Of a DNA stretch of 20,000 nt, positions 4,801 to 18,909 are shown in pieces. Origin of the DNA: an uncultured virus (IMG/VR IMGVR_UViG_3300030433_003054) (Duplodnaviria; Heunggongvirae; Uroviricota; Caudoviricetes); IMG/VR virus record IMGVR_UViG_3300030433_003054, one strand, 5' to 3'. Position 1 is the stretch's first letter, and each line of letters begins with the position of its first letter. The translations under genes and the position numbers were made by a program. Under the pieces are notes generated by a model, which had not been told where the DNA came from, did no database searches, and saw nothing but the letters and a program-made list of their open reading frames with translations.

Positions 4801-6095
4801 TATTCAGAGGGATCATCTTTATCGAACATTGTTGATCCCCCAAAATCTAGTCCTGTCTGTCGCTGCCCATTTGTATAGTTCTCACCTGCTTTAATGTATT
4901 TGACGATATCCTTTACACCTTTTGAGGGGTCGCATGTTTGAGTCATGCGCTTAAAGTATAGGCCCAATGCTACACCCAATTTCCCCATTTCACAAACAGG
5001 GTCAGGGCCGAACATGGACGTTTGCTGTTCGCAATCTCTTTGATAGTCAGCCAGAGCATCAGAATAGCTTTTATAGCGATTTTTGAGCATGAATTGTCTA
5101 GCTGTTTCCAGCTTGGGGAGAAGATCAAACTCTTCGAAAATTTTCCCTTTCTTTATCTTTTGATCCAGTGCTGCCAGTGATGGAAGCACTGAGATAATTG
5201 CGATCTCTTCCTTATCGCTGCCGAATCCCTGACTAATGATCTTTGGAGGCATATATTTACCGACCAATACAGAGGTAATGATATCTAGTGCAATCGGACG
5301 TGTTGATAGGGTTATATTGTTCAATTGGGCTGCCTGTATCTCAGGCAATAGGTCTAGGATACTGTTTGTGAACGCAACATTGCCATTGATAAACCGTTCT
5401 ACCGTCGATACACTCAGAGCCATCGGATTAGCTATCTCTCCCAGCTTCGTATTCTTAGTTATACCTAAACCCCTTGCTCTTGATAGAGCTTGTCTGAGGG
5501 GTGTTTCCTTGCCTGCTGTACTCTCTTGTGATGCACCAGCTAATTGTATCGCCTCAGCAATAGATAAGGGTGTGCCGTCAGTGTGGAATACCTGCCTGAC
5601 CAATAAAGAGCGAAACCCCTGCTTTGATTGCTTATTATACACGTTGAACCATCGCTGTTCTGCTTCCTTTACATACTCCTTATACTTGGAGTCAGAGGCA
5701 ATAAGGAAGGCGATTGTACGACCGTTGCCAGCTAGTACAAAGTGTTTCCCTTTATTGTCCTCCCATACAACGGGCGCACCCAACGTCGGATCACCCGATG
5801 CTACTAGCATACGGGTGGGATCAAACTTATTGGCTATTTTACGAATCTTTGCCGATTCACCAACCGAAGATAAGTCCCTAGCCTGAAATTCTTCTAAATA
5901 TTCTTTGTTTGGTTTAAAGTCAGGAAGGTTTGAGGCAATAGCCCCCCTGCGTCCATCAAGGGACGTAGGGAGGGTTTTATAGACCACCATATACTCACGA
6001 CCTGCTGCATCAAATAAGGGCTGCTGTGCGGAGCACTGAGAGGGTAATACATTGAATCTATCTCTGAGTGCTTTAATAATTATTTCACTGCTCAT
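1899..6095 (-). CDS. Large polyvalent-type protein (1398 aa) with an N-terminal DdrB-like ParB-superfamily domain; remaining domains unrecognised
   Basis: Long ORF coupled to both neighbours. EFQARDLS...IRKIANKFDPTRML...GAPVV...VLAGNGRTIA matches the ddrB-ParB pattern (QxRDR, GAPIV, SGNGR) of phage/plasmid polyvalent proteins. Lys-rich linkers separate modules. Confidence 0.8.
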   Translation of the reverse strand: MSSEIIIKALRDRFNVLPSQCSAQQPLFDAAGREYMVVYKTLPTSLDGRRGAIASNLPDFKPNKEYLEEFQARDLSSVGESAKIRKIANKFDPTRMLVASGDPTLGAPVVWEDNKGKHFVLAGNGRTIAFLIASDSKYKEYVKEAEQRWFNVYNKQSKQGFRSLLVRQVFHTDGTPLSIAEAIQLAGASQESTAGKETPLRQALSRARGLGITKNTKLGEIANPMALSVSTVERFINGNVAFTNSILDLLPEIQAAQLNNITLSTRPIALDIITSVLVGKYMPPKIISQGFGSDKEEIAIISVLPSLAALDQKIKKGKIFEEFDLLPKLETARQFMLKNRYKSYSDALADYQRDCEQQTSMFGPDPVCEMGKLGVALGLYFKRMTQTCDPSKGVKDIVKYIKAGENYTNGQRQTGLDFGGSTMFDKDDPSEYGEVAYTIFVNHTLPPRLAQELVSNPQESELSNVRKEIAPHMFVIFKISDDEYGISLGDPTHGRSRLKYKGSKNDIEDWIYEGNASENLIIDTTKAGFVSPFYTQWYVDNMMKVVVPRNIELLILNALPDRFASVVQEIEEDAGLMGEIDEEQQQMFREYIIEYLSKIMEKKSSLKKELMRSKSIESLEANFKDDLSDLEKIKKMFDDNLSPMSKNEILEQTKNYFIRKYEHPPEEPITEKYLFDYVKKALEKLHAEVRTEIMPKLQEQSMRQFEKDRYIKLDRTIYKELYALKENFKDPKIRNTHLYNVAVALHEIFKNDEWKNYLWEGDSFNLKKTLSKAFLHRSNEAKALHKSGAKTKTAILNRFYDLLEAIGIPDMVINAFKKTVEVGRVEKEDKPSESPFKTDVEEPYYVDIRGLKGTYEGQDFEAMGWKTNVGSCDVPSEFFAKFAHRNNKIWIHDKNYSFKTPLKEFADKKIKAAGKYDIGKKFPFVRPFYSEKYSLREHKKDACGSGSGRYFYTDQVAQFYKDSVLGVTPMCHYKGYYGLSKENKDMVMKMQNRLHYIRTKDHKKRTPIVTEYLRLFNANVCKTTRSGTDQRYYIANPDPVNIGYSSGSLKMLIAMPLDTDFFEFMNDNVDKWLEGTDDVGFEKEEVTLHHSHPKLPIDLYVHAHIRNGLTEYFAIYRMMDMQISIFSVAGHTSAVQAWGSNKRVLIDDGQYKDILLMGGGDISPRRQNAKTYFLKVLNHMKDFSGAKEKPKSKPKSRGKGKTYDKNPTTAHMQRIFDALKDNYGADIKKFVSANFWLDAKQNKVSFIRPKGSGFLRMSELGKVKITIPMFKKMAFSNNEIERKLVARSFIFKFFIWTNEYNQVAIYNVTSLSNQPPKSIFMGFGEDGHIESKRALLISDHSDMGKNEFKENLPQLIQALPIEETAKAMYEYILSILKEIRNEEEWQETSKDYADKVVK

Positions 6096-6096
6096 C

Positions 6097-7416
6097 TTAA
6101 TCCTCTAATGCTCTGAATCGTGGTAACAGAGCTTGTATTATCATATTATCTTTCTGCACCGAACGCATGAGGATATCTACCCTCTTATCAGATTTGGATT
6201 TGCCTTCGGAGCATAGACTTTTGTCTAGCAATCCCTTTTTCCGAAAAAGCCGATATATCGCATCAACCATATCAACAAAGTTTTGTCGGGTATTTTCCTG
6301 AATATATCGTCGTTCTTTCTTTGTGAATTTGGTCTTTTTAACGGGCTTTTTAAAGGAAGCATTGGGATCACCAATATCTTTTCGCACCTGAGCTTGTGCC
6401 TGCTTGGTGCTTAGACCCTTCCATTTATATTTCCCTAATTTCTCTTTCAGGCCGTACCATTCCCCCATTGCATGACGATATTGGGCTGCCCATCTATCCT
6501 CTAATGCTTTCTCTAAGCGGTTTATTGCTCCTCCCCCTTTTTTGAAATTGGTGTCAGCCCACTCTCTATTCGTTTTAATTTTTTGCCGTAAAGAAAGAGG
6601 AATTATACTGTTCTCATCTATCGGATCAGCCCATATTGAGGACTTACAATCTCCACCACAAAGAAGAGAGAGAAAAGCTTTTGTCTTGTCCTTCGCTTTA
6701 ATTACAGAGCATAGTTGAGGTTTTATTATTGACCACAGTGTTTTGTAATACTCATTTTTATCTTTATTGAGCATTACCTCCTGAACGGATTTGCTAAATT
6801 CGTCCCATTCCCCTAAATGTGCTCTAAATTCCGTCCTATTAGGATCATTGACGTATACCAAATACCCATATTTTCTCTTAATTGCACTTGTACCAAACGA
6901 TGTATTAGGGTCTTTTGCATGAGTTAATTCGTGACGAATCACTCTTTTTAGAGAGTTCATGCTATTCCAGTACACTAATGGATCAGAGATATAAGTTCTT
7001 GCAAATGAATCTTTATGAGCATACCCATTAACATAAACATCAATAGCCATTATTGACTTTCTTCTGTCGCCCCATGTTCTAGGGCCAGCATCATATCTTT
7101 CACCGCTTCGATGATCTTTGTATATTTCAATTCCCTGTACTCCACTAACAGGATCAAATAATTTCCATTCCTCAGTATCAGAATAAGCACTTAATTTTTT
7201 ACCAATAATCCTGAATCTTTGTTCTCTTTTAGGAGTGCGCCCAGTATGAGGAGAAGAGGGTACAAAATCTTTGGAGAATAGTCTATCGTTCTCTATTCGT
7301 TCTCCTGATTCCTTCCATTCTCCAAATATCAGACCTTCGATGTGCGCTATGGCTTCATCGAATACTGCTTGATCTTCGGGTGATAGCTTTATGGGATTAG
7401 GATTGTCTGTGTACAT
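6097..7416 (-). CDS. Putative zincin-like metallopeptidase (HEXXH), paralog 2
   Basis: VIRHELTHAKDP (HELTH at 6919-6933) with downstream YVNDPNRTEFRAH supplying a candidate third ligand Glu. The start overlaps the upstream stop (TAATG). Clearly similar to the adjacent gene. Confidence 0.75.
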   Translation of the reverse strand: MYTDNPNPIKLSPEDQAVFDEAIAHIEGLIFGEWKESGERIENDRLFSKDFVPSSPHTGRTPKREQRFRIIGKKLSAYSDTEEWKLFDPVSGVQGIEIYKDHRSGERYDAGPRTWGDRRKSIMAIDVYVNGYAHKDSFARTYISDPLVYWNSMNSLKRVIRHELTHAKDPNTSFGTSAIKRKYGYLVYVNDPNRTEFRAHLGEWDEFSKSVQEVMLNKDKNEYYKTLWSIIKPQLCSVIKAKDKTKAFLSLLCGGDCKSSIWADPIDENSIIPLSLRQKIKTNREWADTNFKKGGGAINRLEKALEDRWAAQYRHAMGEWYGLKEKLGKYKWKGLSTKQAQAQVRKDIGDPNASFKKPVKKTKFTKKERRYIQENTRQNFVDMVDAIYRLFRKKGLLDKSLCSEGKSKSDKRVDILMRSVQKDNMIIQALLPRFRALED

Positions 7417-8609
7417 TAATCCTCCAAAGACTCAAATCGTTGTAACAGAGCTTGTATTATCATCTGATTTTTAGGCTTGTGAACCGAACGCATGAGAATA
7501 GCTGCCTTCTTATCAGATATCCGTTCATACTGCGCATCATCGGATATACAAATTGAGGGGTCTAGTAATCCCTTTTTAGAAAAGAGAGAATAGATTGCAT
7601 TGATCATATCGGTGTAATTATCTTTTCGATAGGCCCGTATCCGATTGCGCTCTTTCTTTGTGAATTTGGTCTTTGGCTTAGGTTTTCGCCCACCTTCTTT
7701 ACGAAATTTATCTAGTTGTGCAAAATAGACCTGTTCCCAATATTTTTTATGCTGTCCTTCATAAAAGTCGATGATGCTCTCTATCTCATCATCGTCAACC
7801 GTCGCAAAATTTTTATTGTGCACCAAATTTCTAGCCAATTGATCGGGTACAAATCCCTCTCCTGACTCCATGTATCTGATAAATCGCTTGTTAAAATTCT
7901 TTCTGCCCTTATGATTCAACACACGAGAGCACCAGCTATCCCTTATTTTCTCCCATACATCTTTGTAATACTCATTTAAATTACGATTTGCATAAACAAA
8001 CTGTATCTCTGACGTTAGATTATCCCATTCACTCAGATGAGAGCGGAATTCTGCTCTCTTAGGATCATTGATATAGGTTCCAAATCCGAATTCATTCGAA
8101 TATGCACTTGTTCCACCAGTCGCAATCGCTTGTGTACCAATCCTCTTTTTCGTGGGGTCTTTTGCATGCGTTAATTCGTGACGGAGAGTGTTTTTAAAAC
8201 CCAAATACGAATTCCAAAAAGAATATGGCTCAAAAGTCTTTGCCCACTCAAAATCTTTTTTTTTCGGCCAGCCATTTAAATATACGAATAAGTGTAGTCT
8301 TGTGACTCTATGTGTTTCGGTTTTTCTAAATGTTTTTAATTCACCATATGTAAAGCCAAAGAGATATTTGTTCTTATTATGCTCCCTTTTAGAACCCTTT
8401 ACAGTAATCGTTAAGGGAATTGGGCCTGTTCCTGCACGATCGATTATTACATCTTTCTCATAAATTAGTGTATTGGCTACTTGTCCTCTCTGAGTCGCCC
8501 ATTTACCGAACATCAAACCTTCTAGTGTATCTAATATTTCATCATATATTTCTTGCTCTTTATGAGAGAGCTTTATCGGATTCGGATTTTCTACATATTG
8601 GATATTCAT
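7416..8609 (-). CDS. Putative zincin-like metallopeptidase (HEXXH), paralog 1 (397 aa from the revised start)
   Basis: TLRHELTHAKDP (HELTH at 8166-8180) and YINDPKRAEFRSH. Start moved to ATG 8609 (MNIQYVENPNPIKLS) because it aligns with the paralog N-terminus MYTDNPNPIKLS, and the longer ORF would run through a terminator and the upstream gene. Confidence 0.75.
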   Translation of the reverse strand: MNIQYVENPNPIKLSHKEQEIYDEILDTLEGLMFGKWATQRGQVANTLIYEKDVIIDRAGTGPIPLTITVKGSKREHNKNKYLFGFTYGELKTFRKTETHRVTRLHLFVYLNGWPKKKDFEWAKTFEPYSFWNSYLGFKNTLRHELTHAKDPTKKRIGTQAIATGGTSAYSNEFGFGTYINDPKRAEFRSHLSEWDNLTSEIQFVYANRNLNEYYKDVWEKIRDSWCSRVLNHKGRKNFNKRFIRYMESGEGFVPDQLARNLVHNKNFATVDDDEIESIIDFYEGQHKKYWEQVYFAQLDKFRKEGGRKPKPKTKFTKKERNRIRAYRKDNYTDMINAIYSLFSKKGLLDPSICISDDAQYERISDKKAAILMRSVHKPKNQMIIQALLQRFESLED

Positions 8610-8620
8610 AATTTTGCCTA

Positions 8621-8655
8621 GAAATAAAAGAGGGGAGGGAGATAACCCCCTCCCC
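8621..8655 (-). terminator. Rho-independent terminator after the 883-aa gene
   Basis: Minus strand GGGGAGGGGG-TTAT-CTCCCTCCCC (10-bp stem with one G-U pair) followed by TCTTTTATTT. Confidence 0.8.
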
Positions 8656-8682
8656 AAACACAAAGGAGATCTGAGTATGTGT

Positions 8683-11334
8683 TTAATAATATCTGCGTCG
8701 TCTAGCGGTATTTCGCCTAGTACGGTGACGTGGATTCGATTTTGTACCGACAATCTGCTGAAAGGTTTTGCCTTCGCTGAGGAGTTTTCGAACCTTGTCT
8801 TCCACAGCGGGAACGTCTTGGGTCTGATATCGCTTCATGGTTTTTGCGATATTATCCACTAAGTCTTGCTGTTTTTTCTGTATCTTAACAAGCTCGGCTT
8901 TGAGTGCTCCCGTTTTACTAGCAATCATCTTTTTCAATATAGGGCCAAATCCCTTAATGCTTTGAAAAAGGGTCAATCCATTGAGCCAATCAAAGATATC
9001 TCTATCAATTTTCTGATCTTTATTCCCCACTTTTATCGTTTGCTGTGGGTATTTAAATTTTTCATCAGGGTTTTTTTTTGAGGGTACATAAAAGTCGTAT
9101 AACGGTTGCTCTGAATAGAGATGGTTATGATCTCTGACACTCATGGGATATGCAAAGTGCATCTGTGGATTCTGTTTGAGCGAAGCCAATCCTTCGGCCC
9201 CTTTATCCAATGCTCCCACTATTCCCTGTAAGAGTCGTCTATCTTCCTCAGACAGTCCATCACTTTGAGTCGCACCGCCAGTTTGAGTCGCACCGCCAGT
9301 TTCGGGTTGACCAGTAAGTTTCTCTTCTTTGTCCTTTATTGCCTCATTCATTTTCTTTTGAAGAGTCTTAAAAGTCTTAGCTGTTGTTTTGTATCCAGCA
9401 TCTTTTAGAGCTTTTTGAATAATCTTAGCGGCATCAGGATATTTGTTGCCTGAATTAATGAGTCTATCAAATGCTTTGTCTATGTAGTCCACACTAAAAT
9501 CAATTTGCTGTTGATCTCCTCTTTTAATCTTCTCATCAAGACCTTCGAAATTGTCAGCAATAGTGGTCGCATCATCTTTTGCATTTTCTAGGGTATATGA
9601 TTCTTTAAACGGCTCTGCGGAGATAGTTACATAACTCTTTATTGTACTTTCCTCCCATGATGGAGTATCTTTGCTCCACATAGGAATATCAAATTTTTCC
9701 TCCACTAGATTGTAATTTTTCTCTAATACAGATTCCAGTTTAGCCACTAGATCATCATACTTCTTTTCAGTGTTTAAAGGTTCGGTTGATTCAATAATCA
9801 AGCTGTAAGTTCCGTTTCCACCAATAGAATCACTATAAAATTGTACTACTGTTCCTTTTTTACTCACACCTTTAATTGAGGTCAGCTTAGATTCTAAGTC
9901 CTTTTCCACCTTCGAAATTAATGTTTTTGATAGCTTTTGTGACTTTTGAGGCTGTGGTGGCTGTGGTGGCTGTGGTGGTGCGACAGTTTTACCTGTTGCT
10001 TTTGCTGCGTCCCGTATAAGCTCTCTATACGAATCGGAGAATGCATCAATATTTGATACACCCACCAATCTAGCTTGACCAGCCAGATCGGAGAAAAATG
10101 CTACCTCTGCGCTGACCTGCTTGGGAGTCGATGAGCCAATTTCTAGGCGCATCGGTACACCATCTTGTATATAGATAACATATCGACCTACAAAGACGTT
10201 TCCATCAGCAAGGTTGTCCATAAAAGACTCAAAGCTGTTTATTTTTTTCGGGGGGTTGAATTTATAGGCCAGTCCAGCACAATGAGGATTCTTTTTACCA
10301 TGCGTCGGGCAATGAGGATTCTTTTTCGTCCCTGCACAATGGCAATGAGGATTGTTGCGACTAGGTACAATTTCGTAATCTGCGTCTTTCAAATCCGCAT
10401 CAGGTATGATGTACATATCCAAATAGTCTATAAAGGTTTTAGGAGCTTTATAGACACCCTCTGAATCATATTCTGAAAAGGATTCCAAATCCCCTAGAAT
10501 ATCCTCTACCTCATATCCCTCTGAACCTAAATATTTGATAGTACCCTTGACTTTGCTACCTCCCGTCAAGAGTAATAAAACATTTCCCATAGAGGAATCA
10601 TAAACAATAGCCTGATAAGGAATACCCTTATGTTCTCCATAAAACTGAGAATATTTTGCATCACGTCCTAGACGATCCAGTTTCGCTAATGTTTGATATA
10701 CCTTGTGGATATCCGATTCGATTTGCTTTTCAGTCGTATATCCCTTTTTGAGCATTTTTCTTAGCCCTTTAAGGTTATCGACAATTGTTTTCCCATCTAT
10801 AACAGGGTTGTGGTGTGTTTGCATTGGGTTGTCCTGTAAAGTAAAATTTAGTGCCTGTTTAAAACTTTTAAAATGATGCAATCTAGGTGGTTCGCCACCA
10901 TATCGTCGCTCATCTATCGTTTCATACCGCTCTCGTGCGTCCTGATACTGTTCCCAGTATTGTTTCGCTTTTGCAAGCTCCAATGGATCACCAGTACGAT
11001 GATATTCGTTCTTAGCTTTTGCAAAAAGCATCGCATAGGCCCCTATTCGGTGTCCATCTCCATCAGGAGTATCTGATTTGCTCTCAAAGATGTTTTTTTT
11101 GTATGGAATTGCCATTGTACCAATAATTGCTTTAATCCCTGTATCGTCACCGAAGGGGATAGTCCTAAAAGACTTGGGTTTAAAATGCTGTGGGTCTATT
11201 TGTCTGAATCGGAGATACCGCTCTGTTTTATCGACCTTCGGAGCAATGTAATCGTTATCACGAAGCCATTTTTTAGCCTGTGTGATATTCCAATCATCAC
11301 GATCGAAGAGGACTGACTGAACGGTGGTACTCAT
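8683..11334 (-). CDS. Modular 883-aa putative virion protein with an N-terminal Tlr6F-like domain; segments separated by NP motifs and low-complexity linkers; Arg-rich C-terminus
   Basis: The N-terminal ~72 aa VQSVLFDRDDWNITQAKKWLRDNDY...VDKTERYLRFRQIDP...GIKAIIG resembles my recollection of the Tlr6F family. Also has NPHC x3, PPQ x3, TGGATQ x2 and the tail SNPRHRTRRNTARRRRYY. Confidence 0.7.
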   Translation of the reverse strand: MSTTVQSVLFDRDDWNITQAKKWLRDNDYIAPKVDKTERYLRFRQIDPQHFKPKSFRTIPFGDDTGIKAIIGTMAIPYKKNIFESKSDTPDGDGHRIGAYAMLFAKAKNEYHRTGDPLELAKAKQYWEQYQDARERYETIDERRYGGEPPRLHHFKSFKQALNFTLQDNPMQTHHNPVIDGKTIVDNLKGLRKMLKKGYTTEKQIESDIHKVYQTLAKLDRLGRDAKYSQFYGEHKGIPYQAIVYDSSMGNVLLLLTGGSKVKGTIKYLGSEGYEVEDILGDLESFSEYDSEGVYKAPKTFIDYLDMYIIPDADLKDADYEIVPSRNNPHCHCAGTKKNPHCPTHGKKNPHCAGLAYKFNPPKKINSFESFMDNLADGNVFVGRYVIYIQDGVPMRLEIGSSTPKQVSAEVAFFSDLAGQARLVGVSNIDAFSDSYRELIRDAAKATGKTVAPPQPPQPPQPQKSQKLSKTLISKVEKDLESKLTSIKGVSKKGTVVQFYSDSIGGNGTYSLIIESTEPLNTEKKYDDLVAKLESVLEKNYNLVEEKFDIPMWSKDTPSWEESTIKSYVTISAEPFKESYTLENAKDDATTIADNFEGLDEKIKRGDQQQIDFSVDYIDKAFDRLINSGNKYPDAAKIIQKALKDAGYKTTAKTFKTLQKKMNEAIKDKEEKLTGQPETGGATQTGGATQSDGLSEEDRRLLQGIVGALDKGAEGLASLKQNPQMHFAYPMSVRDHNHLYSEQPLYDFYVPSKKNPDEKFKYPQQTIKVGNKDQKIDRDIFDWLNGLTLFQSIKGFGPILKKMIASKTGALKAELVKIQKKQQDLVDNIAKTMKRYQTQDVPAVEDKVRKLLSEGKTFQQIVGTKSNPRHRTRRNTARRRRYY
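9264..9299. repeat. 18-bp tandem duplication (TGGATQ x2 linker)
   Basis: TTTGAGTCGCACCGCCAG x2, in frame within the 883-aa gene. Confidence 0.9.
9950..9976. repeat. 9-bp tandem repeat x3 (Pro/Gln linker)
   Basis: GGCTGTGGT x3 encoding PPQ repeats on the minus strand. Confidence 0.9.
10280..10353. repeat. Three spaced copies of CAATGAGGATT encoding NPHC
   Basis: Copies start at 10280, 10310 and 10343. Peptide: RNNPHCHCAGTKKNPHCPTHGKKNPHCAG. Confidence 0.85.
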
Positions 11335-11336
11335 AG

Positions 11337-12194
11337 CTATCTCTTAGGGTTCCAACGCAATTGTCCTACTGCGGGAGAATTAAAGAGCTTCCAATATGCT
11401 TTATGATCTTCTTTATGGGTGATCAAACGCACTCTTACTGTAATAGGTCTTTTACCTAATTTATCTTTGAGGTATTTGTAAGCACCATCGTTTTCAAAAG
11501 AATACACCGCTTCACCTGTTCTTTTATCTTTTCCCTTCACTTGGTGGGTTATGTATTTTACATTGATCTTAAGTTTGCTTCTTGTACTTGATGTTCGACC
11601 TGTTTTTGTTTCCCGACTTGTGTATAATGGAATGAGAGGATCATAAGCCTTTTTGATACCTGTCATGTATGCTCTTGCTGCGGCTCGTGCTGATGGCGCA
11701 CTTGCAAATCCACCCAATATTCTCTCCTTGTCATTTCCCTCATACAGGATTACCATGTAGAGAGTCGATATTTGACCCATCACCTTATCTTCAATATCCC
11801 GAACAGCTACCTTTGATGCTTGTTCTGCTTGTCGTGTATACCTTGCTTGGGGAGATCGGTACTCTTTGGACGGTTGCTTTAAAAACTCTAACATTTCTGC
11901 AAATCTTAGAAGAGTTTTATATTTCTGTCCACCTTTCTTAAACAGCTTCGCTCCCTCTTCATCGGTCGATTTATCTCTGATATCTCGTATGAATTTTGCT
12001 CCACTTTGCAAAGCACTCGGAGAAAATAGCTCAGGGAAATTGCCTAGATATTGCTCAATATGCTTCAAAGTCACGTTCGATGTATCCTTCGCTAGACTCT
12101 TGTTGCCGTTTTGAAGCACCTTAAGGATCGCTTGACGAATCGCTGATTTTCCTGTGGGTACAAATGCTTTCTTTTTCGTTGGGTTGTGTTTCAT
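11337..12194 (-). CDS. Basic hypothetical protein (285 aa), possibly DNA-binding virion protein
   Basis: AAGGA upstream of the ATG; Lys/Arg-rich; begins MKHNPTKKK and ends RWNPKR. Confidence 0.75.
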   Translation of the reverse strand: MKHNPTKKKAFVPTGKSAIRQAILKVLQNGNKSLAKDTSNVTLKHIEQYLGNFPELFSPSALQSGAKFIRDIRDKSTDEEGAKLFKKGGQKYKTLLRFAEMLEFLKQPSKEYRSPQARYTRQAEQASKVAVRDIEDKVMGQISTLYMVILYEGNDKERILGGFASAPSARAAARAYMTGIKKAYDPLIPLYTSRETKTGRTSSTRSKLKINVKYITHQVKGKDKRTGEAVYSFENDGAYKYLKDKLGKRPITVRVRLITHKEDHKAYWKLFNSPAVGQLRWNPKR

Positions 12195-12205
12195 TTTATT
12201 AATCC

Positions 12206-12589
12206 TTACTGTGATGCGGTGATGCGTACATAGATACGGGCTTGGAGTCCAGATGATGTTTCAGCTTGTATGCGTACATATTGGAGAGCCATATCATAAT
12301 TTGAGAATACATAATTGCCTGAACTCATAACCAGCGACAATTGAGGATTCAGATTAAAATACCTAACATCGGCCCCCTCTTGTGCGATACCGCCTTGCAA
12401 AGTAATTTCCACTACCTGAGTCGTGTTGTCACGACTCTCGATCTGTATGGCGATTCTAGGCAATCCCTGTACATTTAAACACTCTGTCCGTACTGTATCG
12501 CCACCAGCTTGTAATTGTATCTGATATTCTTTTGATACAGCACTAGCCGATATTTCGCTTGAACCTATTGCATTGTTACGAATAACCAT
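12206..12589 (-). CDS. Small beta-rich protein (127 aa), candidate jelly-roll minor capsid/vertex protein
   Basis: Alternating hydrophobic beta-strand pattern (RIAIQIES, VVEITLQGG, YVRIQAE, ARIYVRITA); lies in the putative capsid cluster. Function is inference. Confidence 0.6.
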   Translation of the reverse strand: MVIRNNAIGSSEISASAVSKEYQIQLQAGGDTVRTECLNVQGLPRIAIQIESRDNTTQVVEITLQGGIAQEGADVRYFNLNPQLSLVMSSGNYVFSNYDMALQYVRIQAETSSGLQARIYVRITASQ

Positions 12590-12596
12590 GATGAAC

Positions 12597-13175
12597 CTAG
12601 TAAAAGGAGGAGAATATCGTAAATTGAGGGTCAGCAGCTAAAACCTCACCCCATAAAAAATCTAATTTCACTTGCCAATATCGAATAGGATACTCGCCCG
12701 TCGGCTCAAACGATATGTACGTCGCATTTCGTCCACCCTGAGACACAACGAATTGATCACTGACATTGACACAATCTGTCACCTGTACAACAGACTGAGA
12801 ATTATTGGGAGAGATGAATTCTAGGGCCTTAACATCTAGTGATTTTGTTGCACCATCACCAATATTATTGATCACAACATGCAACCTTCCACCACGTCCA
12901 GAACCAGCATATTTCCATATGGCGACTCCCTCTTCTGTACCTCCTCCCGTACTAGATCGAAGGTCAGGGCGAAGATCGAAAACAGGACTTGACCACGTTG
13001 CTTGTTTCCAGTCAGGAGCAGCAGCATTAGCCAGCATCAAGGCAACCTCACCACCGTCCCATAGGCCGATAGGCATACTATTGGGACGGGGATAGGGCAT
13101 TGAGCCGTTAGGATTACGCAGGTATCCTTTATTATTGGGATCTTGGGGTACAAATCCCGTATCTCTAAAATACAT
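12597..13175 (-). CDS. Beta-rich protein (192 aa), candidate minor capsid/penton-type protein
   Basis: Coupled to the upstream gene (TAATG). WSSPVFDLRPDL...GRLHVVI...IRYWQVKLDF looks like a beta-sandwich. Function is inference. Confidence 0.6.
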   Translation of the reverse strand: MYFRDTGFVPQDPNNKGYLRNPNGSMPYPRPNSMPIGLWDGGEVALMLANAAAPDWKQATWSSPVFDLRPDLRSSTGGGTEEGVAIWKYAGSGRGGRLHVVINNIGDGATKSLDVKALEFISPNNSQSVVQVTDCVNVSDQFVVSQGGRNATYISFEPTGEYPIRYWQVKLDFLWGEVLAADPQFTIFSSFY

Positions 13176-13768
13176 TAGCCACCTACTGTATAATTAGAGC
13201 TTCCTCTCATTTCTAGCACGACCAATACAATATCAATACGAAGATTCGGAAATAGAGGACGAATCCCAATTTGCATAGAGGAACCAGTATTAATCGCATA
13301 GCCTGTACCACCCAATTCAGCAGGTTCGGAACCACTACCGCAAATTGTCTTTGCTAGACGTTCTCCGACCAATATCTGATCTCCCGTTGTATAGCTCACA
13401 GAGATGAGGAATTGAGAAAGAGGGTCAGTAGTAAGGGCCACACCAGTAGTAAGCTGTGCATCAGCATTGATAGCTATAAGACGACAAGGCAAATCAAACT
13501 GTATACGTTGGATCGATTGGGTATTTGCCGCACCATTTAAAAGACCCGTTGAGTAGTATCGGGTTTGATATCCAACGGTTTCATTTGTGGAATAAAACGG
13601 GGCCGTCGGGTAAAATGGAGCACGAACAAATTTAGGCTGATCAGGTTGGGTTCCTCCCATATCCTGAGCATAGGGCATTTGTACAAGAGCTTGCTGTGGC
13701 TGTGCGGGACGTTGTGGCTCTTGTCGTCCGTACATTGTCGGCATATTTCCATAAGGATTTTTATACAT
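13175..13768 (-). CDS. Beta-rich protein (197 aa from the revised start), candidate second/small single jelly-roll capsid protein
   Basis: AGGAG-N7-ATG at 13768 (MYKNPYGN). A Gln/Pro-rich N-arm precedes beta strands (IQRIQFD, RLIAINA, FLISVSY, MQIGIRP, LRIDIVLVVLE). Confidence 0.6.
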   Translation of the reverse strand: MYKNPYGNMPTMYGRQEPQRPAQPQQALVQMPYAQDMGGTQPDQPKFVRAPFYPTAPFYSTNETVGYQTRYYSTGLLNGAANTQSIQRIQFDLPCRLIAINADAQLTTGVALTTDPLSQFLISVSYTTGDQILVGERLAKTICGSGSEPAELGGTGYAINTGSSMQIGIRPLFPNLRIDIVLVVLEMRGSSNYTVGG

Positions 13769-13788
13769 CTTTGATCTCCTAGATGCTG

Positions 13789-13824
13789 AATGGGGCAAGG
13801 CATATACAATGCACTTGCCCCATT
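13789..13824. terminator. Strong intergenic hairpin downstream of the putative major capsid gene (partial terminator or mRNA-stabilising stem)
   Basis: AATGGGGCAAG-GCAT-ATACA-ATGC-A-CTTGCCCCATT inverted repeat. The T-tract is on the + strand side (TTTTGTTTT); on the minus strand only TT follows. Confidence 0.65.
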
Positions 13825-13856
13825 TTGTTTTAAAAGTGTAGGATCAACCTAATAGA

Positions 13857-14558
13857 TTATCCAATCTCAATAACGTTCTTATAGAATCCGAAGAGAGCAA
13901 CCTTAACAAATGATGCGTTAGCACCAACGTTGGCGGCACGACTACCGAAACGGAGAAGGATAGAGAAAGTGGTTCCACCGGGTAGGCTTACAGGGTGACG
14001 ACGATACAAGAAGATGTTTGCCGCACCGTTGTTCATGTGACCAGTGTCAGCCTGAGTAGGGGCTGCTTGGTTATCAAGAGCAACACCAACCGCACCGAAA
14101 GCACCGCCACCAGCACCAATAAGATGAAGAGGAGCAATTTCAACGATTGTTTGAGTAAAGTCCCAACTCAGAACAGCATTTTGCTGAATATTCAAAAGCT
14201 CAGTAACAAGAGCATTGGTATTGATAGGTGCGTTCATGGCGAACCCAGCTACACTATCGTCAGCGGCTGAACCTTTACCGACAAGTGCGGAAACACCGTA
14301 AATATCGAATGCAAGCCCATTACTGACCCGACCGGCCTCTTTTTGGGAGGTTTCTGCAATTGTCAAGGAGCTTTGAAAGCCCTGCCCTGAACTAGAAAGA
14401 GGAACGGAAAATAAACGAAAAGTGCTGTTTGCAATAACTGATGCACCAGTAAGAAGCTGTGTACTCCAAATGGTAGTTTCGCCATAACGGAAAAGATTTT
14501 TAGGCTGAGAGAATGGTACTGCGGGGATTGATCCCTGCCCTTCTTTTAAATATTGCAT
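13857..14558 (-). CDS. Putative major capsid protein, single jelly-roll type (233 aa from the revised start)
   Basis: Strong AGGAG RBS before ATG 14558. Gly/Ala-rich, low-charge, beta-rich sequence (FRLFSVP..GQG..LTIAETS..AGRV..FDIYGVS; PVSLPGGTTFSILLRF; FVKVALFG). Followed by a hairpin. Size fits SJR capsid proteins rather than HK97 or DJR. Fold is inference. Confidence 0.6.
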   Translation of the reverse strand: MQYLKEGQGSIPAVPFSQPKNLFRYGETTIWSTQLLTGASVIANSTFRLFSVPLSSSGQGFQSSLTIAETSQKEAGRVSNGLAFDIYGVSALVGKGSAADDSVAGFAMNAPINTNALVTELLNIQQNAVLSWDFTQTIVEIAPLHLIGAGGGAFGAVGVALDNQAAPTQADTGHMNNGAANIFLYRRHPVSLPGGTTFSILLRFGSRAANVGANASFVKVALFGFYKNVIEIG

Positions 14559-14597
14559 GATAACTCCTATAAGCAATAAAATGTTTAAAATGTTTGA

Positions 14598-15938
14598 TTA
14601 TCGTGCCGCACCGATCATGGCGACACCTGAGTAACTATCTGATTCGTATGCTAGTCCAGCCATATCCATTGCGATACCTGAATACCCTTTTGAGGCTCCT
14701 TGATCGAATTTTTGCTGTGCTGCATTGATAGCGGCAATTTTGATTTGAGAGATGGCACGAATTCGGTCAGGTGCGCTCATACGACAAAGTTTAGCGAATC
14801 TATCCCAACCCAATACTTTGATTAACCAGCCCCATCTGTGGCCCATTTTACCAGCATATCGTGATGATCCATCGTGGGAGGAGGAACGATAGGGGCACGC
14901 ACCGAAGATTGCCATGTATCGCTCAGGCCCAGCCGAAGCTGCCATGCGTTCTTTTTGAGAAAGATCGTGACCAACGTGCATAGCATCAACCATCGAAGCA
15001 TCTCCGTACATACCCATATGAGCACCCGCCATAGGTACAACATCATAAGCACCGCCATCACCCATAAAAGCAAGTCCATCGACCGCTTTTTTGCCTTCCT
15101 CTACGATTGCTTCTGCTGAGGCTGCTGACTTGGGGAATAAAGTACCTGCTTTGTGCATAAGATAAAGTTTATGGAATTGTGCCGCACCCGATACTGTTGC
15201 GATCGCTACCGCTGCTGCATTGGCTGTTTGAGCTTTAACCAGCTTGCTCTTTTTGAGAGCATAATTGGTAATTGCTGCCAGTCCCAGACCAACGGCAAAG
15301 ATTCCAGCATATGATTCGCTCTTTTTAAGCCATTGAGGTGCCCATGTTGCTGCTTGGAGCTTCTTAGCTACATAATCATACGACATAGTGAAAGGAACGA
15401 TCACAGCCATACCGATCACAGAACCGCCTAGATATGGAGCCGCCTGTTTGAGCAATGGCACTTTTTTCATGGCTTTTGTGACAGGTTTGAGCAATGCTAA
15501 TTCGGGATTGCGCTTATATGCTGCGTTTCTACGACGACGCATGTATGCTCTACGAGCGGTTTTTCGACGCATACCCTTTTTTGTTCCGTTTTTACGACGT
15601 TTCAGAGCAAGTGCATTTTTACGACGTTTCAGAGCAAGTGCATTTTTACGACGTTTCAGAGCAAGTGCGTTCTTTTTGCGCTTGTGGGCCGCATTTTTTT
15701 TGCGCTTGTGGGCTGCGTTTTTACGACGTTTCATTTTAAGAGGATTCAAACGCAAAACGATAGGCTTCTTTGCTGTTTTTCTTCTCTTAACAGTTCTTCG
15801 CTTCCTAGCATTTGTTTTTCGCTTGACAGGCTTTCTTCGCTTGACAGGATTGCGCTTTTTTCGCTTGGGATTCGATACAAAAAGTGCACCCAATGAGGAC
15901 TTTCTGCGTCGGGGATTGGATCGTAACACGAGGGCCAT
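14598..15938 (-). CDS. Basic core/membrane protein (446 aa from the revised start): Arg/Lys-repeat N-terminal region, about three hydrophobic helices, Gly/Met-rich C-terminal region
   Basis: AGGAG-N5-ATG at 15938 (MALVLRSNPRRRK). About 145 aa of KRRKN-type repeats, then hydrophobic segments YLGGSVIGMAVIVPFTM, YAGIFAVGLGLAAITNY and ANAAAVAIATVSGAA. Confidence 0.75.
   Translation of the reverse strand: MALVLRSNPRRRKSSLGALFVSNPKRKKRNPVKRRKPVKRKTNARKRRTVKRRKTAKKPIVLRLNPLKMKRRKNAAHKRKKNAAHKRKKNALALKRRKNALALKRRKNALALKRRKNGTKKGMRRKTARRAYMRRRRNAAYKRNPELALLKPVTKAMKKVPLLKQAAPYLGGSVIGMAVIVPFTMSYDYVAKKLQAATWAPQWLKKSESYAGIFAVGLGLAAITNYALKKSKLVKAQTANAAAVAIATVSGAAQFHKLYLMHKAGTLFPKSAASAEAIVEEGKKAVDGLAFMGDGGAYDVVPMAGAHMGMYGDASMVDAMHVGHDLSQKERMAASAGPERYMAIFGACPYRSSSHDGSSRYAGKMGHRWGWLIKVLGWDRFAKLCRMSAPDRIRAISQIKIAAINAAQQKFDQGASKGYSGIAMDMAGLAYESDSYSGVAMIGAAR
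15589..15717. repeat. In-frame tandem repeats: 27 bp x3 (ALALKRRKN) plus 24 bp x2 (AAHKRKKN)
   Basis: TTTTTACGACGTTTCAGAGCAAGTGCA x3 (15589-15669, last base variant), then two near-identical 24-mers. Confidence 0.9.
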
Positions 15939-15960
15939 TTTTACTCCTATTTTCATTGAT

Positions 15961-16004
15961 AGTTTGCACCGTTTTGTTTTTGAGTGCAATTTATTTTTTT
16001 GGTT
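15961..16004 (-). promoter_or_regulatory. Putative sigma70-type promoter for the core/capsid genes
   Basis: Minus strand: A-rich UP-like tract, TTGCAC (15989-15984), 17-bp spacer, CAAACT (15966-15961). It overlaps a TTGCAC-N14-GTGCAA inverted repeat. Confidence 0.5.
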
Positions 16005-16023
16005 TTGATCAATAGTGATCAAT
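16005..16023. promoter_or_regulatory. 19-bp TGATCA-N4-TGATCA element, copy 1
   Basis: TTGATCAATAGTGATCAAT is the exact reverse complement of 18931-18949; intergenic. Confidence 0.65.
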
Positions 16024-16025
16024 GG

Positions 16026-17482: not shown

Positions 17483-17730
17483 TTTTTGCCTCTCATTAGG
17501 TTTAAAGCGATACCTGACACGAATCCTATTGCATGGATTCGTGTTTTATTATCCATCACAGGTATTCCATTGATTTTAGGATTCCAATTTTGGAGCTTTT
17601 GAGCGACAAATTTTTGAAAAAGGTCGTCGTCAACAGTGATTCCTCTTTTTTGTAGCTCATCGACGGCACTTTGAAGATGGCTCAATAGAGAGATGGCGAA
17701 CGGGAGTACATGTCGAGTACCTAATTTCAT
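17479..17730 (-). CDS. Small hypothetical protein (83 aa)
   Basis: GGAG RBS, ATGA overlaps at both ends, amphipathic/hydrophobic termini. Confidence 0.7.
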   Translation of the reverse strand: MKLGTRHVLPFAISLLSHLQSAVDELQKRGITVDDDLFQKFVAQKLQNWNPKINGIPVMDNKTRIHAIGFVSGIALNLMRGKK

Positions 17731-18098: not shown

Positions 18099-18110
18099 GT
18101 TGTGTCCTTG

Positions 18111-18881
18111 TTATGAGTTTCTTCGTCTTATCTCTTTTAATTTTGCCCTGAGATAATCACGAAATTCGGCAATGGCTATACTTGTAACCGCAGCCACAAT
18201 AATAGTCGGTATCAATGTTTTAGGGTGTAACCCCTTCTTGACCTGACTGATTATAGATTTTTCCTCCTCTTGGGATATGGGAGCTTGGCCCAGTTCAGGC
18301 AATGATGCACCCGAACCATTTTTAGCCTGTACAATATCCCAACCTAATTTTGCGCTTTTTAGGGTAGGTTCCGCATATACCCATTGAGATGGTTTAAATG
18401 GTGGATATCCAATGATTAAATATATATGGCTCCATTGACCGTCCTTCATGGGAGTCCCTTCTATCCAGCGATCAATGCGACCGTTACAACGACCAGCCAG
18501 AACATACCGATAGGGGAGATTCACCGATTCACACATCGCACCCAATAACAAAGCCATATCATCACAATCCCCATACCTGACTCTCAGAGTATAGGTAGGC
18601 TCTTGCAATCGTTCATTTGGTTCATTGACGTAGTAAATATGAGTCTGTACCCATTTTAAAAGAGCTTTTGCCTGTCCCTTATAGTCTCTTGGCTTTACTC
18701 TATTGGTGCGAAAAATATGTACACACAAAGTCGCTATCTCAGGATTCTGACCAGCATAGGACGACACTTGACGTAAAAAAGCCATGCGTTGCGCCTGATT
18801 TTTTTGCGACCAGTCGTTTATTCTCCATGTTTTAGGAGCTTGGGGTGTTGTACCGAAATGTATACGTTCCATCTTATCCAC
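18111..18881 (-). CDS. Transglutaminase-like cysteine enzyme (candidate virion maturation protease) with a C-terminal hydrophobic anchor
   Basis: WVQTHIYYVNEP..ERLQEP..TL..RYGDCDDMALLLGAMCESV (Cys at 18564-18566), WSHIY (His) and WVYAEPT (acidic residue) give the transglutaminase-core motif order. C-terminal LIPTIIVAAVTSIAIAEF. The start is GTG 18881 or ATG 18872. Confidence 0.85.
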   Translation of the reverse strand: MDKMERIHFGTTPQAPKTWRINDWSQKNQAQRMAFLRQVSSYAGQNPEIATLCVHIFRTNRVKPRDYKGQAKALLKWVQTHIYYVNEPNERLQEPTYTLRVRYGDCDDMALLLGAMCESVNLPYRYVLAGRCNGRIDRWIEGTPMKDGQWSHIYLIIGYPPFKPSQWVYAEPTLKSAKLGWDIVQAKNGSGASLPELGQAPISQEEEKSIISQVKKGLHPKTLIPTIIVAAVTSIAIAEFRDYLRAKLKEIRRRNS

Positions 18882-18900
18882 AGTATCTATTGGAGTATAT

Positions 18901-18909
18901 ATTATATCA
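18901..18909 (-). promoter_or_regulatory. Extended -10 promoter (TGnTATAAT) upstream of the transglutaminase-like gene
   Basis: Minus strand TGATATAAT. The -35 position (GTGTAG) is poor and abuts the TGATCA repeat element. Confidence 0.65.

What the first reader, a model, noticed from the sequence alone, without database searches (positions are those of the whole stretch)
7380..15938. Pervasive (basic)-Asn-Pro/Asn-Ala motif at termini and domain junctions of putative virion proteins: candidate maturation-cleavage code
Seen in sequence: 446-aa protein RSNP, VSNP, KRNP x2, RLNP and repeated RKN-A/KKN-A/RKN-G/RRN-A; 883-aa protein QDNP, HHNP, RNNP, KKNP x3, KFNP, KQNP, KSNP, RRNT; 285-aa protein at both ends (MKHNP..., ...RWNPKR); 197-aa MYKNP; 192-aa LRNP; both zincins start with (D/E)NPNP. 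The sites fall in linkers or within a few residues of termini. Inference: they are recognition sites for a virus-encoded protease (the transglutaminase-fold enzyme is the obvious candidate) that cuts precursors into small basic peptides and free domains, analogous to adenovirus protease processing of core proteins. Alternatively they are a second sorting signal.
Basis: partly seen in the sequence, partly recalled or inferred. Interest (0 to 1): 0.85.

Follow-up and report, generated by a model that had tools for sequence, protein, structure and literature searches.

The report
Conserved basic-Asn-Pro motif in virion proteins
A short basic-Asn-Pro signature recurs far above chance, and is kept in distant relatives, at the ends and module borders of the particle proteins of an undescribed jelly-roll-capsid bacterial virus; it looks like a processing or recognition mark, but cutting has not been shown.

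Summary
In the nine finding-region proteins Asn-Pro occurs 23 times against 6.7 expected. It is the most over-represented of all 400 dipeptides in the window. 14 of the 23 sites have K/R/H at -2, against 0 of 9 in the window's other proteins.

The motif is under selection. In 10 homologues of the 883-aa protein (43-49% identical), Asn is unchanged in every sequence present at ten NP columns and Pro differs in two cells. Inserted modules are flanked by (K/R)(K/N)NP. In 19 basic-protein homologues nearly every Asn of the basic arm sits in R-K-N-[P/A/G]. Ser-Pro, Thr-Pro and Asp-Pro are not enriched, so the signal is Asn-specific.

Four distant GC-rich relatives keep the gene order and the enrichment. 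The 232-aa neighbour models as a single jelly roll, closest to SPV1's capsid protein.

Cleavage and the enzyme remain untested. The transglutaminase-like protein is conserved with invariant Cys and His. I put cleavage at about 0.37, with an uncut hinge or docking tag close behind.

The scan found this motif before on other DNA.

The parts
14598..15938 (-). 446-aa protein: conserved N-terminal leader, about 120-aa protamine-like basic arm, hydrophobic (membrane) segments, conserved C-terminal domain (GHRWGWLIK). It has 5 NP sites and 8 basic-N-[A/G] sites in the first 145 residues.
   Evidence: 19 homologues. In their basic regions the residue after Asn is P 84, A 46, R 33, G 22 of 223; at -1 K 88 and R 46; at -2 R 116 and K 35 (the automatic region bounds overshot for P0024 and P0028).
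15867..15872 (-). Asn23-Pro24 (GALFVSNP), end of the conserved N-terminal leader
   Evidence: Alignment A3: Asn in 19 of 19, Pro in 18 of 19 homologues.
15504..15509 (-). Asn144-Pro145 (YKRNPEL), junction of the basic arm and the first hydrophobic segment
   Evidence: A3 column 311: Asn 18 of 19, Pro 15 of 19, -1 R/K 17 of 19.
15589..15668 (-). Perfect 27-nt x 3.0 tandem repeat encoding three ALALKRRKN units; a 24-nt x 2.1 repeat lies beside it (15673-15722)
   Evidence: The database copy of this protein (P0011, 100% identical otherwise) has one unit fewer.
8683..11334 (-). 883-aa modular protein with 9 NP sites (residues 169, 176, 328, 339, 349, 360, 722, 755, 867; DNA 10825-10830, 10804-10809, 10348-10353, 10315-10320, 10285-10290, 10252-10257, 9166-9171, 9067-9072, 8731-8736) and an RRNT in the C-terminal basic tail
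   Evidence: 10 homologues carry 8-15 NP each against 1.1-2.6 expected, and across the 117 sites counted in all 11 aligned sequences (window included) -2 is K/R/H in 103 and -1 is K/N in 77. At ten NP columns Asn is unchanged in every sequence present and Pro differs in two cells. Insertions in homologues are flanked by the motif. All 9 sites fall in coil with pLDDT below 50.
10285..10353 (-). NPHCHC...KKNPHC...KKNPHC Cys/His mini-module, each unit opened by basic-NP
   Evidence: Absent from P0007, P0008 and L001. L007 has an analogous RRNPGCGCGG...RRNPGGCGCGG. ANPHC is also inserted in the C-terminal domain of two basic-protein homologues.
11337..12194 (-). 285-aa protein with NP four residues from the N-terminus (12180-12185) and three residues from the C-terminus (11346-11351, RWNPKR)
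   Evidence: The C-terminal site is kept in L001 (RLNPKR) and the N-terminal one is not. Proteins at the matching position in L004 and L005 end KKYNP + Arg-rich tail.
12597..13175 (-). 192-aa protein, YLRNPNG at residues 21-22 (13110-13115)
   Evidence: Conserved in L001.
13175..13768 (-). 197-aa protein starting MYKNPYG (13754-13759)
   Evidence: Not conserved in L001, which has MSNYKNNN.
7416..8612 (-). HExxH (HELTH) protein A, probable start MNIQYVENPNPIK; NPNP at 8577-8588
   Evidence: NPNP is kept in L001 (2 of 2 NP). No Pfam or NCBIfam family even at E 10.
6097..7416 (-). HExxH protein B, a paralogue, starting MYTDNPNPIK; NPNP at 7393-7404
   Evidence: NPNP is kept in L001 (2 of 2).
13857..14555 (-). 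232-aa single jelly-roll protein, the probable major capsid protein; it has no NP
   Evidence: AF2 mean pLDDT 86.7, pTM 0.81. VIA-align best match is the SPV1 capsid chain 6oj0_T (Z 8.4, rmsd 3.4, 139 aligned), then HHIV-2, HCIV-1, STIV and P23-77 VP17/VP16. Foldseek on PDB gave nothing at E <= 0.001. BFVD gave 11 hits at E <= 0.001, several named capsid. 135 representatives at E <= 0.001.
18111..18881 (-).
   Evidence: Pfam Transglut_core E 3.6e-10. Present in L001, L004, L005 and L007 at 40-72% identity with invariant YGDCDDM, HIY and AEPT.

Best explanation
[K/R/H]-[K/N/x]-Asn-[Pro, or Ala/Gly in the basic arm] is a short linear motif under strong, Asn-specific purifying selection. It marks the borders between autonomous modules, basic arms and termini in the internal proteins of a tailless jelly-roll-capsid virus.

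Most likely reading (inferred, not shown): it is a maturation-cleavage code read during assembly by a virus-encoded peptidase. Candidates are the conserved membrane-anchored transglutaminase/papain-fold Cys-His protein and the two HExxH proteins.

Inferred consequences:
- Cutting at the two universal sites of the 446-aa protein (after the about 22-aa leader, and at the arm/membrane junction) would free a protamine-like DNA-condensing arm, which could be cut further at internal RKN[P/A/G] sites.
- Cutting in the 883-aa protein would release its modules.
- Terminal sites would trim short leaders and basic tails.

Shown: the enrichment, the context, the conservation, the linker location and the co-conserved enzyme. 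Inferred: that a bond is cut, which bond, and by what.
For: 1. Enrichment is 3.4x, with a basic -2 context specific to these proteins. PRD1 and lambda show no [KRH][KRN]NP.
2. At ten NP columns in 43-49%-identical homologues Asn is unchanged in every sequence present and Pro differs in two cells, against a mean column identity of 39%. Against L001, Asn of NP is kept in 21 of 29 sites vs 88 of 224 for other Asn.
3. The determinants lie on the N-terminal side and at Asn, with a small residue at +1 and variable +2 to +5. That resembles a subsite pattern.
4. The signal is Asn-specific. NP is 5.9x and 6.9x enriched in the two families, while SP is 0.98 and 0.66, TP 1.59 and 1.35, DP 1.09 and 0.34.
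5. Modules inserted in homologues carry the motif on both sides. One domain (AKKW) is N-terminal in the window and flanked by RRKNP...RRNP in L007; a C-terminal AAKKWIDSHGA stretch in L004/L005 resembles it only partly.
6. The sites lie in low-confidence coil.
7. A Cys-His papain-fold enzyme is a core gene of the module in all relatives whose locus reaches that far.
8. There is precedent for packaged multidomain proteins being processed. The neighbouring 1398-aa protein has a DdrB-like ParB domain, and phage P1 DdrB is reported to be cut before packaging (PMC5512222, passages).
Against: - No datum shows cleavage.
- Pro at P1' is disfavoured by most endopeptidases (recalled knowledge).
- Sites 3-8 residues from a terminus would release only tiny peptides. 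Two of them (MKHNP, MYKNP) and the first site of the basic protein are absent from L001.
- A dozen sites in a 150-aa arm would leave 8-13-aa peptides.
- Several RKNA copies in the window are recent tandem duplicates.
- NP followed by an Arg-rich tail at C-termini in distant relatives fits a DNA-binding hinge equally well.
- The HExxH proteins match no peptidase family.
- The third catalytic position of the transglutaminase-like protein is Glu, not Asp.
- Truncated database forms that end or start near NP sites are frameshifted or lie on short contigs, so they are uninformative.
Confidence: 0.37

Rival explanations
1. Uncut hinge, docking or incorporation tag. The motif is a recognition element or turn at the point where a flexible basic arm meets a folded module or membrane helix. 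It tethers internal proteins to DNA, acidic lipid or the inner capsid face, or targets them into the particle. Each module carries its own tag, which is why fused modules show it at their seams.
For: N-terminal M-(R/K)n-NP and C-terminal NP + Arg-rich tails recur in several unrelated proteins of distant relatives. 11 of 23 sites are within 25 residues of a terminus. In the basic arm the motif recurs every 9-13 residues, like a structural repeat. Sites lie in disordered linkers, as binding motifs do.
Against: A generic turn or cap would tolerate Ser, Thr or Asp, yet those are not enriched before Pro and do not replace Asn at the ten columns. In the 883-aa family the basic residues precede the motif rather than follow it (+2 K/R 26 of 117), unlike SPKK-type DNA-binding turns (recalled). 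No binding partner has been identified.
Confidence: 0.3
2. Enzyme-free Asn-Pro autocleavage (asparagine lyase chemistry). The Asn side chain attacks its own peptide bond, as reported for reovirus mu1/VP5 Asn42-Pro43 and the anti-sigma factor RsgI.
For: Asn is unchanged at all ten NP columns and Pro nearly so. Asn-Pro is the scissile pair in RsgI and in reovirus VP5/mu1 (PMC10328401, passages). A search listing also showed FlhB autocleavage papers, which I did not read.
Against: Known cases have a single site held in a structured turn of a dedicated fold. Here there are many sites in predicted coil. In the basic arm Pro is freely replaced by Ala or Gly. No family match was found.
Confidence: 0.08
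3. Asn side-chain chemistry by the transglutaminase-fold enzyme. This would be deamidation of the motif Asn, or Lys-Asn isopeptide cross-linking of core proteins, rather than backbone cleavage.
For: The motif pairs Lys with an unchanging Asn. The only recognisable enzyme of the module belongs to a fold whose members act on side-chain amides (Pfam Transglut_core). Its Cys and His are invariant.
Against: Transglutaminases use Gln, not Asn (recalled). There are no data on modification. Pro, Ala or Gly at +1 has no obvious role in this model.
Confidence: 0.08
4. Composition, repeat or DNA-level artefact with no function at the protein level.
For: Part of the count comes from internal repeats: NPHC x3, NPNP, and the 27-nt and 24-nt tandem repeats.
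Against: Within-protein shuffles never reach the count. Seven different NP hexamers are used, with AAT and AAC in proportion to overall usage. The motif is conserved across relatives with very different amino-acid composition.
Confidence: 0.02

Closest known systems
Adenovirus protease (adenain) and its substrates pVII, pre-mu, pVI, pVIII, pIIIa, pTP (recalled, not read here)
   Same: A short consensus recurs near the termini of several virion-interior proteins, including very basic DNA-condensing ones. A cysteine peptidase gene sits with the structural genes.
   Different: The consensus differs: (M/I/L)XGX-G from recall, against basic-x-Asn-Pro here. The enzyme family differs: Pfam Transglut_core here, with no Peptidase_C5 hit. 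Here the capsid protein is a single jelly roll and the host appears prokaryotic. Cleavage here is unproven.
Head-maturation protease motifs of tailed phages (T4 gp21 L/I-x-E; phiKZ-type S/A/G-x-E; recalled)
   Same: Short leaders that both target proteins into the head and are then removed; many internal proteins share one motif.
   Different: Those use Glu at P1 and a herpesvirus-assemblin-fold serine protease. No such protease, portal or HK97-type capsid gene was recognised in this 20-kb window.
Asn-Pro autocleavage: reovirus/aquareovirus mu1/VP5 and RsgI (PMC10328401, passages); FlhB/YscU NPTH (recalled; titles only)
   Same: The same dipeptide, with Asn strictly required. In reovirus the protein is a virion protein involved in entry.
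   Different: Those have one site in a structured turn of a dedicated fold. Here there are many sites in predicted coil, Pro is replaceable by Ala or Gly in the basic arm, and a basic residue is required at -2.
Polyvalent proteins of phages and conjugative elements (Iyer et al. 2017, PMC5512222; passages)
   Same: Multi-module proteins packaged with the DNA and proposed to be processed by embedded zincin-like peptidases. A DdrB-like ParB protein lies next to the two HExxH proteins here.
   Different: No junction motif came up in the passages I read. The HExxH proteins here are separate genes and match no Pfam family, so no MPTase family either.
SPKK/SPRR turn motifs and arginine-rich arms of capsid proteins (recalled)
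   Same: A turn-forming residue plus Pro beside runs of Lys or Arg in DNA-condensing segments and terminal tails.
   Different: Ser-Pro and Thr-Pro are not enriched here. In the 883-aa family the basic residues precede rather than follow the Pro.
Portogloboviridae (SPV1) and other single jelly-roll, inner-membrane viruses (PMC8459092, whole text)
   Same: A single jelly-roll capsid protein, best structural match SPV1. The particle model of shell, membrane and nucleoprotein core fits the membrane-anchored and very basic proteins here.
   Different: There is no sequence similarity. Z 8.4 is only at the edge of what the tool calls meaningful. Relatives' contigs are 41-74 kb against SPV1's 20 kb. 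The accessory genes are bacterial-type.

Membership tests
Virion maturation-cleavage system (adenovirus / T4 type) | One short consensus recurring in several virion proteins, near termini or between domains, and conserved among relatives | tested here: met
Virion maturation-cleavage system (adenovirus / T4 type) | A peptidase encoded with the structural genes | tested here: inconclusive
   The Transglut_core protein (E 3.6e-10) is conserved with invariant Cys and His, but peptidase activity is not implied by the fold alone. The two HExxH proteins have no family match. No adenain or prohead-protease family was found.
Virion maturation-cleavage system (adenovirus / T4 type) | Precursors are actually cut at the motif | not testable with these tools
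   Needs protein mass spectrometry or N-terminal sequencing.
Asparagine peptide lyases (reovirus mu1, RsgI, FlhB) | Asn-Pro scissile pair with Asn strictly conserved | tested here: met
   At ten NP columns of A1 Asn is unchanged in every sequence present; Pro differs in two cells.
Asparagine peptide lyases (reovirus mu1, RsgI, FlhB) | Site held in a structured turn of a dedicated autoproteolytic fold; one site per protein | tested here: not met
   8-15 sites per protein, all in coil with pLDDT below 50 in the model (the model is poor). Pro is replaced by Ala or Gly in the basic arm. The structural requirement is taken from passages of PMC10328401.
SPKK-type DNA-binding turn motifs | Ser/Thr-Pro followed by two basic residues | tested here: not met
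   SP and TP are not enriched. In the 883-aa family +2 is K/R in 26 of 117 sites. Some basic-arm and C-terminal-tail sites (NPKR, NPRRR) do fit.
Polyvalent proteins (Iyer et al. 2017) | Multi-domain protein with recognised conflict domains and a zincin-like MPTase | tested here: inconclusive
   The neighbouring 1398-aa protein has ddrB-ParB (E 7.3e-10). The 883-aa protein and its homologues have no Pfam domain. The HExxH proteins matched no Pfam family at E <= 10, so none of the MPTase kind.
Single jelly-roll, inner-membrane icosahedral viruses (Portogloboviridae / Sphaerolipoviridae-like) | Major capsid protein with a single jelly-roll fold similar to theirs | tested here: inconclusive
   The model is confident (pLDDT 86.7). 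Best match SPV1 has Z 8.4, then HHIV-2 7.0, HCIV-1 6.5, P23-77 VP17 5.7. The tool warns that Z near 8 can be a common arrangement. Foldseek on PDB gave nothing at E <= 0.001.

The most novel reading that the evidence does not exclude
The motif is a substrate for Asn side-chain chemistry by the conserved, membrane-anchored transglutaminase-fold enzyme, not a backbone-cleavage site. The enzyme would either form Lys-Asn isopeptide cross-links that weld the core proteins into a covalent network, or deamidate Asn so that basic DNA-binding arms become less basic and act as a switch for genome release. Either would be a new kind of enzymatic virion maturation in a prokaryotic virus.
Probability: 0.08. 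Interest if true: 0.9.

Novelty: new variant of a known kind. Interest (0 to 1): 0.7.

Why it matters
These viruses are uncultured and their structural proteins match no family, so this conserved four-residue code is one of the few handles on how the particle is built.

If the sites are cut, this would be a new protease specificity (Asn at the key position) and a bacterial-virus parallel to adenovirus core maturation, including protamine-like peptides released from a membrane-anchored precursor. If they are not cut, the motif is a new packaging or tethering tag.

Either way it gives a simple sequence rule for predicting which proteins of this virus group travel inside the particle and where their functional modules begin and end. 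It can be tested directly with a few recombinant constructs.

Tried and rejected
- **Whole genome:** none is held for this window.
- **Isolate phage records:** tblastn of the 232-aa and 883-aa proteins against 50,697 records gave no match.
- **IMG/VR scans:** scans with the 239-aa ORF and with alignment A1 gave no relative. A genome-contig scan with A1 gave none. A scan with the capsid alignment A2 was not possible because no stretch was conserved enough, so I used the basic-protein alignment A3 instead.
- **Pfam, PHROGs, NCBIfam:** only ddrB-ParB, Transglut_core and an integrase SAM-like domain were found. The HExxH proteins showed nothing even at E 10 apart from one Peptidase_M91 row at E 0.11 for an L001 paralogue. 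The 883-aa homologues and modular proteins of distant relatives showed nothing.
- **PDB sequence profiles:** A1 gave only rows at E >= 0.09, and A5 (the 195-aa family) gave none.
- **ESM Atlas:** for the capsid protein, only unnamed viral clusters plus weak PM2 P2 / PRD1 P3 leads at 0.75-0.77. For the 195-aa protein, no usable hit.
- **AF2 of the 883-aa protein:** mean pLDDT 52, too poor for fold searches. I used it only as a disorder proxy.
- **Complex prediction:** transglutaminase-like domain (residues 1-205) with residues 155-200 of the 883-aa protein. The verdict was no answer (score 0.00) and controls were not run. This is not evidence either way.
- **Search for split forms of the 883-aa protein:** four hits. 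One is the window's own truncated form, two are truncated forms whose divergent tails I read as frameshifts, and one lies on a 1.6-kb contig. This says nothing about natural gene fission at NP sites.
- **DNA-level explanation:** rejected. NP uses seven different hexamers, with AAT and AAC as in overall usage.
- **Literature:** four peptide strings gave 0 papers. A search on Portogloboviridae, single jelly-roll and bacterial viruses listed nothing on this group by title or abstract start. The two SPV1 primary papers are not held, so I could not check whether its nucleoprotein is processed.

Full report
**Setting.** All long ORFs of the window lie on the minus strand and are tightly packed. Only three recognisable domains were found: a DdrB-like ParB domain in the 1398-aa protein (E 7.3e-10), a transglutaminase core in the 256-aa protein (E 3.6e-10), and an integrase SAM-like domain. 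No genome is held for the window. No isolate phage record matches the 232-aa or 883-aa protein.

The 232-aa protein (13857-14555) has 135 representative relatives at E <= 0.001. With a 46-sequence alignment it folds confidently (pLDDT 86.7, pTM 0.81) into a beta sandwich. Its best structural match among 48,161 PDB representatives is the single jelly-roll capsid protein of Sulfolobus polyhedral virus 1 (Z 8.4, rmsd 3.4, 139 aligned). Capsid proteins of HHIV-2, HCIV-1, STIV and P23-77 follow.

- Foldseek on PDB gave nothing at E <= 0.001.
- BFVD gave 11 hits at E <= 0.001, several of them named capsid proteins.
- The tool warns that Z near 8 can reflect a common arrangement, so "virion proteins" is well supported but not proven.

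SPV1 particles consist of a single jelly-roll shell, a membrane and a nucleoprotein core (PMC8459092, whole text). That is a reasonable working picture here, given the membrane-anchored and extremely basic proteins.

- NP is the most over-represented of the 400 dipeptides in the window's proteins: 32 vs 13.0, z 5.4.
- In the finding-region ORFs it is 21 vs 6.0, z 6.4, and 0 of 1000 within-protein shuffles reach it. Outside it is 11 vs 6.7, p 0.067.
- With refined starts and both HExxH proteins included it is 23 vs 6.7. The window's other nine proteins give 9 vs 6.1, PRD1 21 vs 11.9 and lambda 22 vs 18.5.
- 14 of the 23 sites have K/R/H at -2, against 0 of 9 in the other proteins. In the non-basic virion proteins alone it is 10 of 18, against a K/R/H content of 16%.
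- 11 of 23 sites lie within 25 residues of a terminus, where 14% of the residues lie. 0 of 5000 shuffles reach this.
- NP is encoded by seven different hexamers, with AAT and AAC used as elsewhere, so the signal is at the protein level.

Some counts are not independent. A perfect 27-nt x 3.0 repeat and a 24-nt x 2.1 repeat encode five of the RKN-A units. NPNP and NPHC x3 are internal repeats.

**Conservation.** The 883-aa protein has 10 homologues among 5.8 billion clusters.

- Each carries 8-15 NP against 1.1-2.6 expected. Across the 117 sites counted in all 11 aligned sequences, the window's included, -2 is K/R/H in 103 and -1 is K/N in 77. Positions +2 to +5 are variable.
- At ten alignment columns Asn is unchanged in every sequence present and Pro differs in two cells, although mean column identity is 39%.
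- Modules present in only some homologues are bracketed by the motif. Examples are PMKKNP-[about 90 aa]-KKVKKNP in P0008 and HGNP-[about 70-90 aa]-K(K/R)NP in P0001, P0009 and P0010.

The 446-aa protein has 19 homologues down to 25% identity.

- All begin with a conserved leader ending GALFV(S/K/T)NP (Asn 19 of 19, Pro 18 of 19).
- All have R-(K/R)-N-P at the junction of the basic arm and the first hydrophobic segment (Asn 18 of 19, Pro 15 of 19).
- Within the basic arms, the residue after Asn is P 84, A 46, R 33, G 22 of 223. At -1 it is K 88 and R 46. At -2 it is R 116 and K 35. The automatic arm boundaries overshot in two sequences.

A syntenic 45-kb metagenome contig (L001) keeps 17 of 22 NP sites of the finding-region proteins. 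Over all 14 compared pairs, Asn of NP is kept in 21 of 29 sites against 88 of 224 for other Asn. In that call the basic protein's first nine residues were left out by my error.

Sites not kept in L001:
- MKHNP (285-aa protein)
- MYKNP (197-aa protein)
- two NPHC units
- LRLNP in the basic arm
- the first site of the basic protein (seen by eye)

Four IMG/VR contigs of 41-73 kb were also recovered. Their basic proteins are about 28-37% identical over the best matching segment, and their amino-acid composition is very different (Arg/Ala-rich). Three of them (L004, L005, L007) keep the order transglutaminase-like, p123, p83, p195, basic protein, capsid protein, p197, p192. L006 is cut upstream.

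Their plus-strand ORFs again show NP at 17 vs 6.9, 25 vs 9.4, 15 vs 6.5 and 36 vs 12.0. These ORF lists include some spurious ORFs.

Typical contexts there are N-terminal MMRRNP or MARRRRNP, C-terminal NP + Arg-rich tails, and module seams such as PRRNPSIGRG...GRRNPSIGRG. The last brackets a module that is absent from the sister contig.

**Asn-specificity.** In the two protein families NP is 5.9x and 6.9x enriched. By contrast SP is 0.98 and 0.66, TP 1.59 and 1.35, and DP 1.09 and 0.34. Asn is not replaced by Ser, Thr or Asp at the ten conserved columns. A generic helix cap or turn would tolerate those residues, so something reads or uses Asn itself.

**Location.** The AF2 model of the 883-aa protein is poor (mean pLDDT 52.2; 441 of 883 residues below 50). 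All nine NP sites fall in segments below 50 and in DSSP coil. Taken as five clusters, that is only modestly unlikely by chance. Together with the insertion pattern it places the motif in linkers.

**Candidate readers.** The transglutaminase-core protein is present in L001, L004, L005 and L007 at 40-72% identity, with invariant YGDCDDM, H-I-Y and A-E-P-T and a C-terminal membrane anchor. The third catalytic position is Glu.

The two paralogous HExxH proteins are conserved in L001 but match no family. The conserved 195-aa protein has invariant His, Ser, Asp, Lys and Glu residues but no recognisable relatives.

**Interpretation.** The data establish a conserved, Asn-specific short linear motif at module borders and termini of internal virion proteins. 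Its architecture has three parts: a basic residue at -2, an Asn that is unchanged wherever the motif is kept, and a small residue after it. Flanks beyond that are variable.

A cleavage code fits this architecture, its recurrence across unrelated proteins, the co-conserved papain-fold enzyme, and the precedent of processed packaged proteins. For the last point, P1 DdrB and proposed zincin processing of polyvalent proteins are described in PMC5512222 (passages). I rank cleavage first at 0.37.

An uncut hinge, docking or packaging tag explains the terminal sites and the NP + Arg tails at least as well (0.30). Enzyme-free Asn-Pro autocleavage, as in RsgI and reovirus VP5/mu1 (PMC10328401, passages), is disfavoured for two reasons: there are many sites in coil, and Pro is replaceable (0.08). 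Asn side-chain chemistry by the transglutaminase-fold enzyme is not excluded (0.08). Chance or composition is excluded.

**Novelty and earlier notes.** Searches of the held literature with four peptide strings and for bacterial relatives of portogloboviruses found nothing on this group or motif.

Earlier notes of this scan report the same kind of motif in other genomes and reach the same open verdict. One describes the capsid module of a related virus group. I tested the enrichment, conservation, seam location and SPV1 likeness independently here.

- the Asn-specificity control
- the column-by-column conservation of the NP sites
- the two universal sites that bracket the basic arm

Noticed in passing
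window 7425-7460, 6106-6141, 6045-6080, 1840-1875 (minus strand); L001 14067-14102, 15253-15288, 15315-15350, 18913-18948: A second shared motif, (I/V)(I/V)xAL..RF..L. It closes both HExxH proteins (…MIIQALLQRFESLED, …MIIQALLPRFRALED) and opens the large proteins that follow (MSSEIIIKALRDRFNVL…, …TIVIALKARFDEI…). The same pattern is seen in L001. It may be a shared tag or a recombination seam.
   Followed up: partly
window 15589-15668 and 15673-15722: A perfect 27-nt x 3 tandem repeat (ALALKRRKN units) and a 24-nt x 2.1 repeat in the basic-arm coding region. The database copy of the same protein (P0011) has one 27-nt unit fewer, so the arm length is polymorphic.
   Followed up: partly
window 10285-10353; L007 17678-18757; L001 4863-6284: A Cys-rich mini-module, NP-x-C-x-C, repeated: NPHCHC…KKNPHC here and NPGCGCGG…NPGGCGCGG in L007. 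It is absent from some homologues. A single ANPHC is inserted in the C-terminal domain of two basic-protein homologues. It could be a metal-binding or disulfide knuckle.
   Followed up: no
window 16026-16613: The 195-aa protein is conserved in all five related loci, with invariant H12-W-G, H42, D55, S68, D73, K143, D146, H153 and E163. No family, PDB or Atlas match was found. It is an unrecognised enzyme candidate in the structural module.
   Followed up: partly
window 1899-6095 and 1-1944; L001 15291-22938: Very large proteins lie downstream of the structural block: a DdrB-like ParB domain protein of 1398 aa here, and in L001 a protein of at least 1351 aa that looks by eye like a methyltransferase-helicase (not scanned). 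These resemble the packaged polyvalent anti-defence proteins of phages and plasmids.
   Followed up: partly
window 1-20000: No terminase, portal, HK97-type capsid or FtsK/HerA-type packaging ATPase family was detected in the 20 kb, despite a full set of putative particle genes. The window is only part of a 74-kb contig, so absence from the genome is not shown.
   Followed up: partly
P0166, P0167 (homologues of the 883-aa protein): Two database homologues diverge into unrelated sequence and end early close to basic-NP sites (after …GTKK, and near …FDQ). I read these as frameshifts. They could be sequencing errors in A-rich runs or real variants.
   Followed up: no
window 5236-5886 (+): A 216-aa plus-strand ORF lies inside the ParB-protein gene, in the window's most GC-rich part of that gene. 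It is probably a spurious antisense ORF.
   Followed up: no
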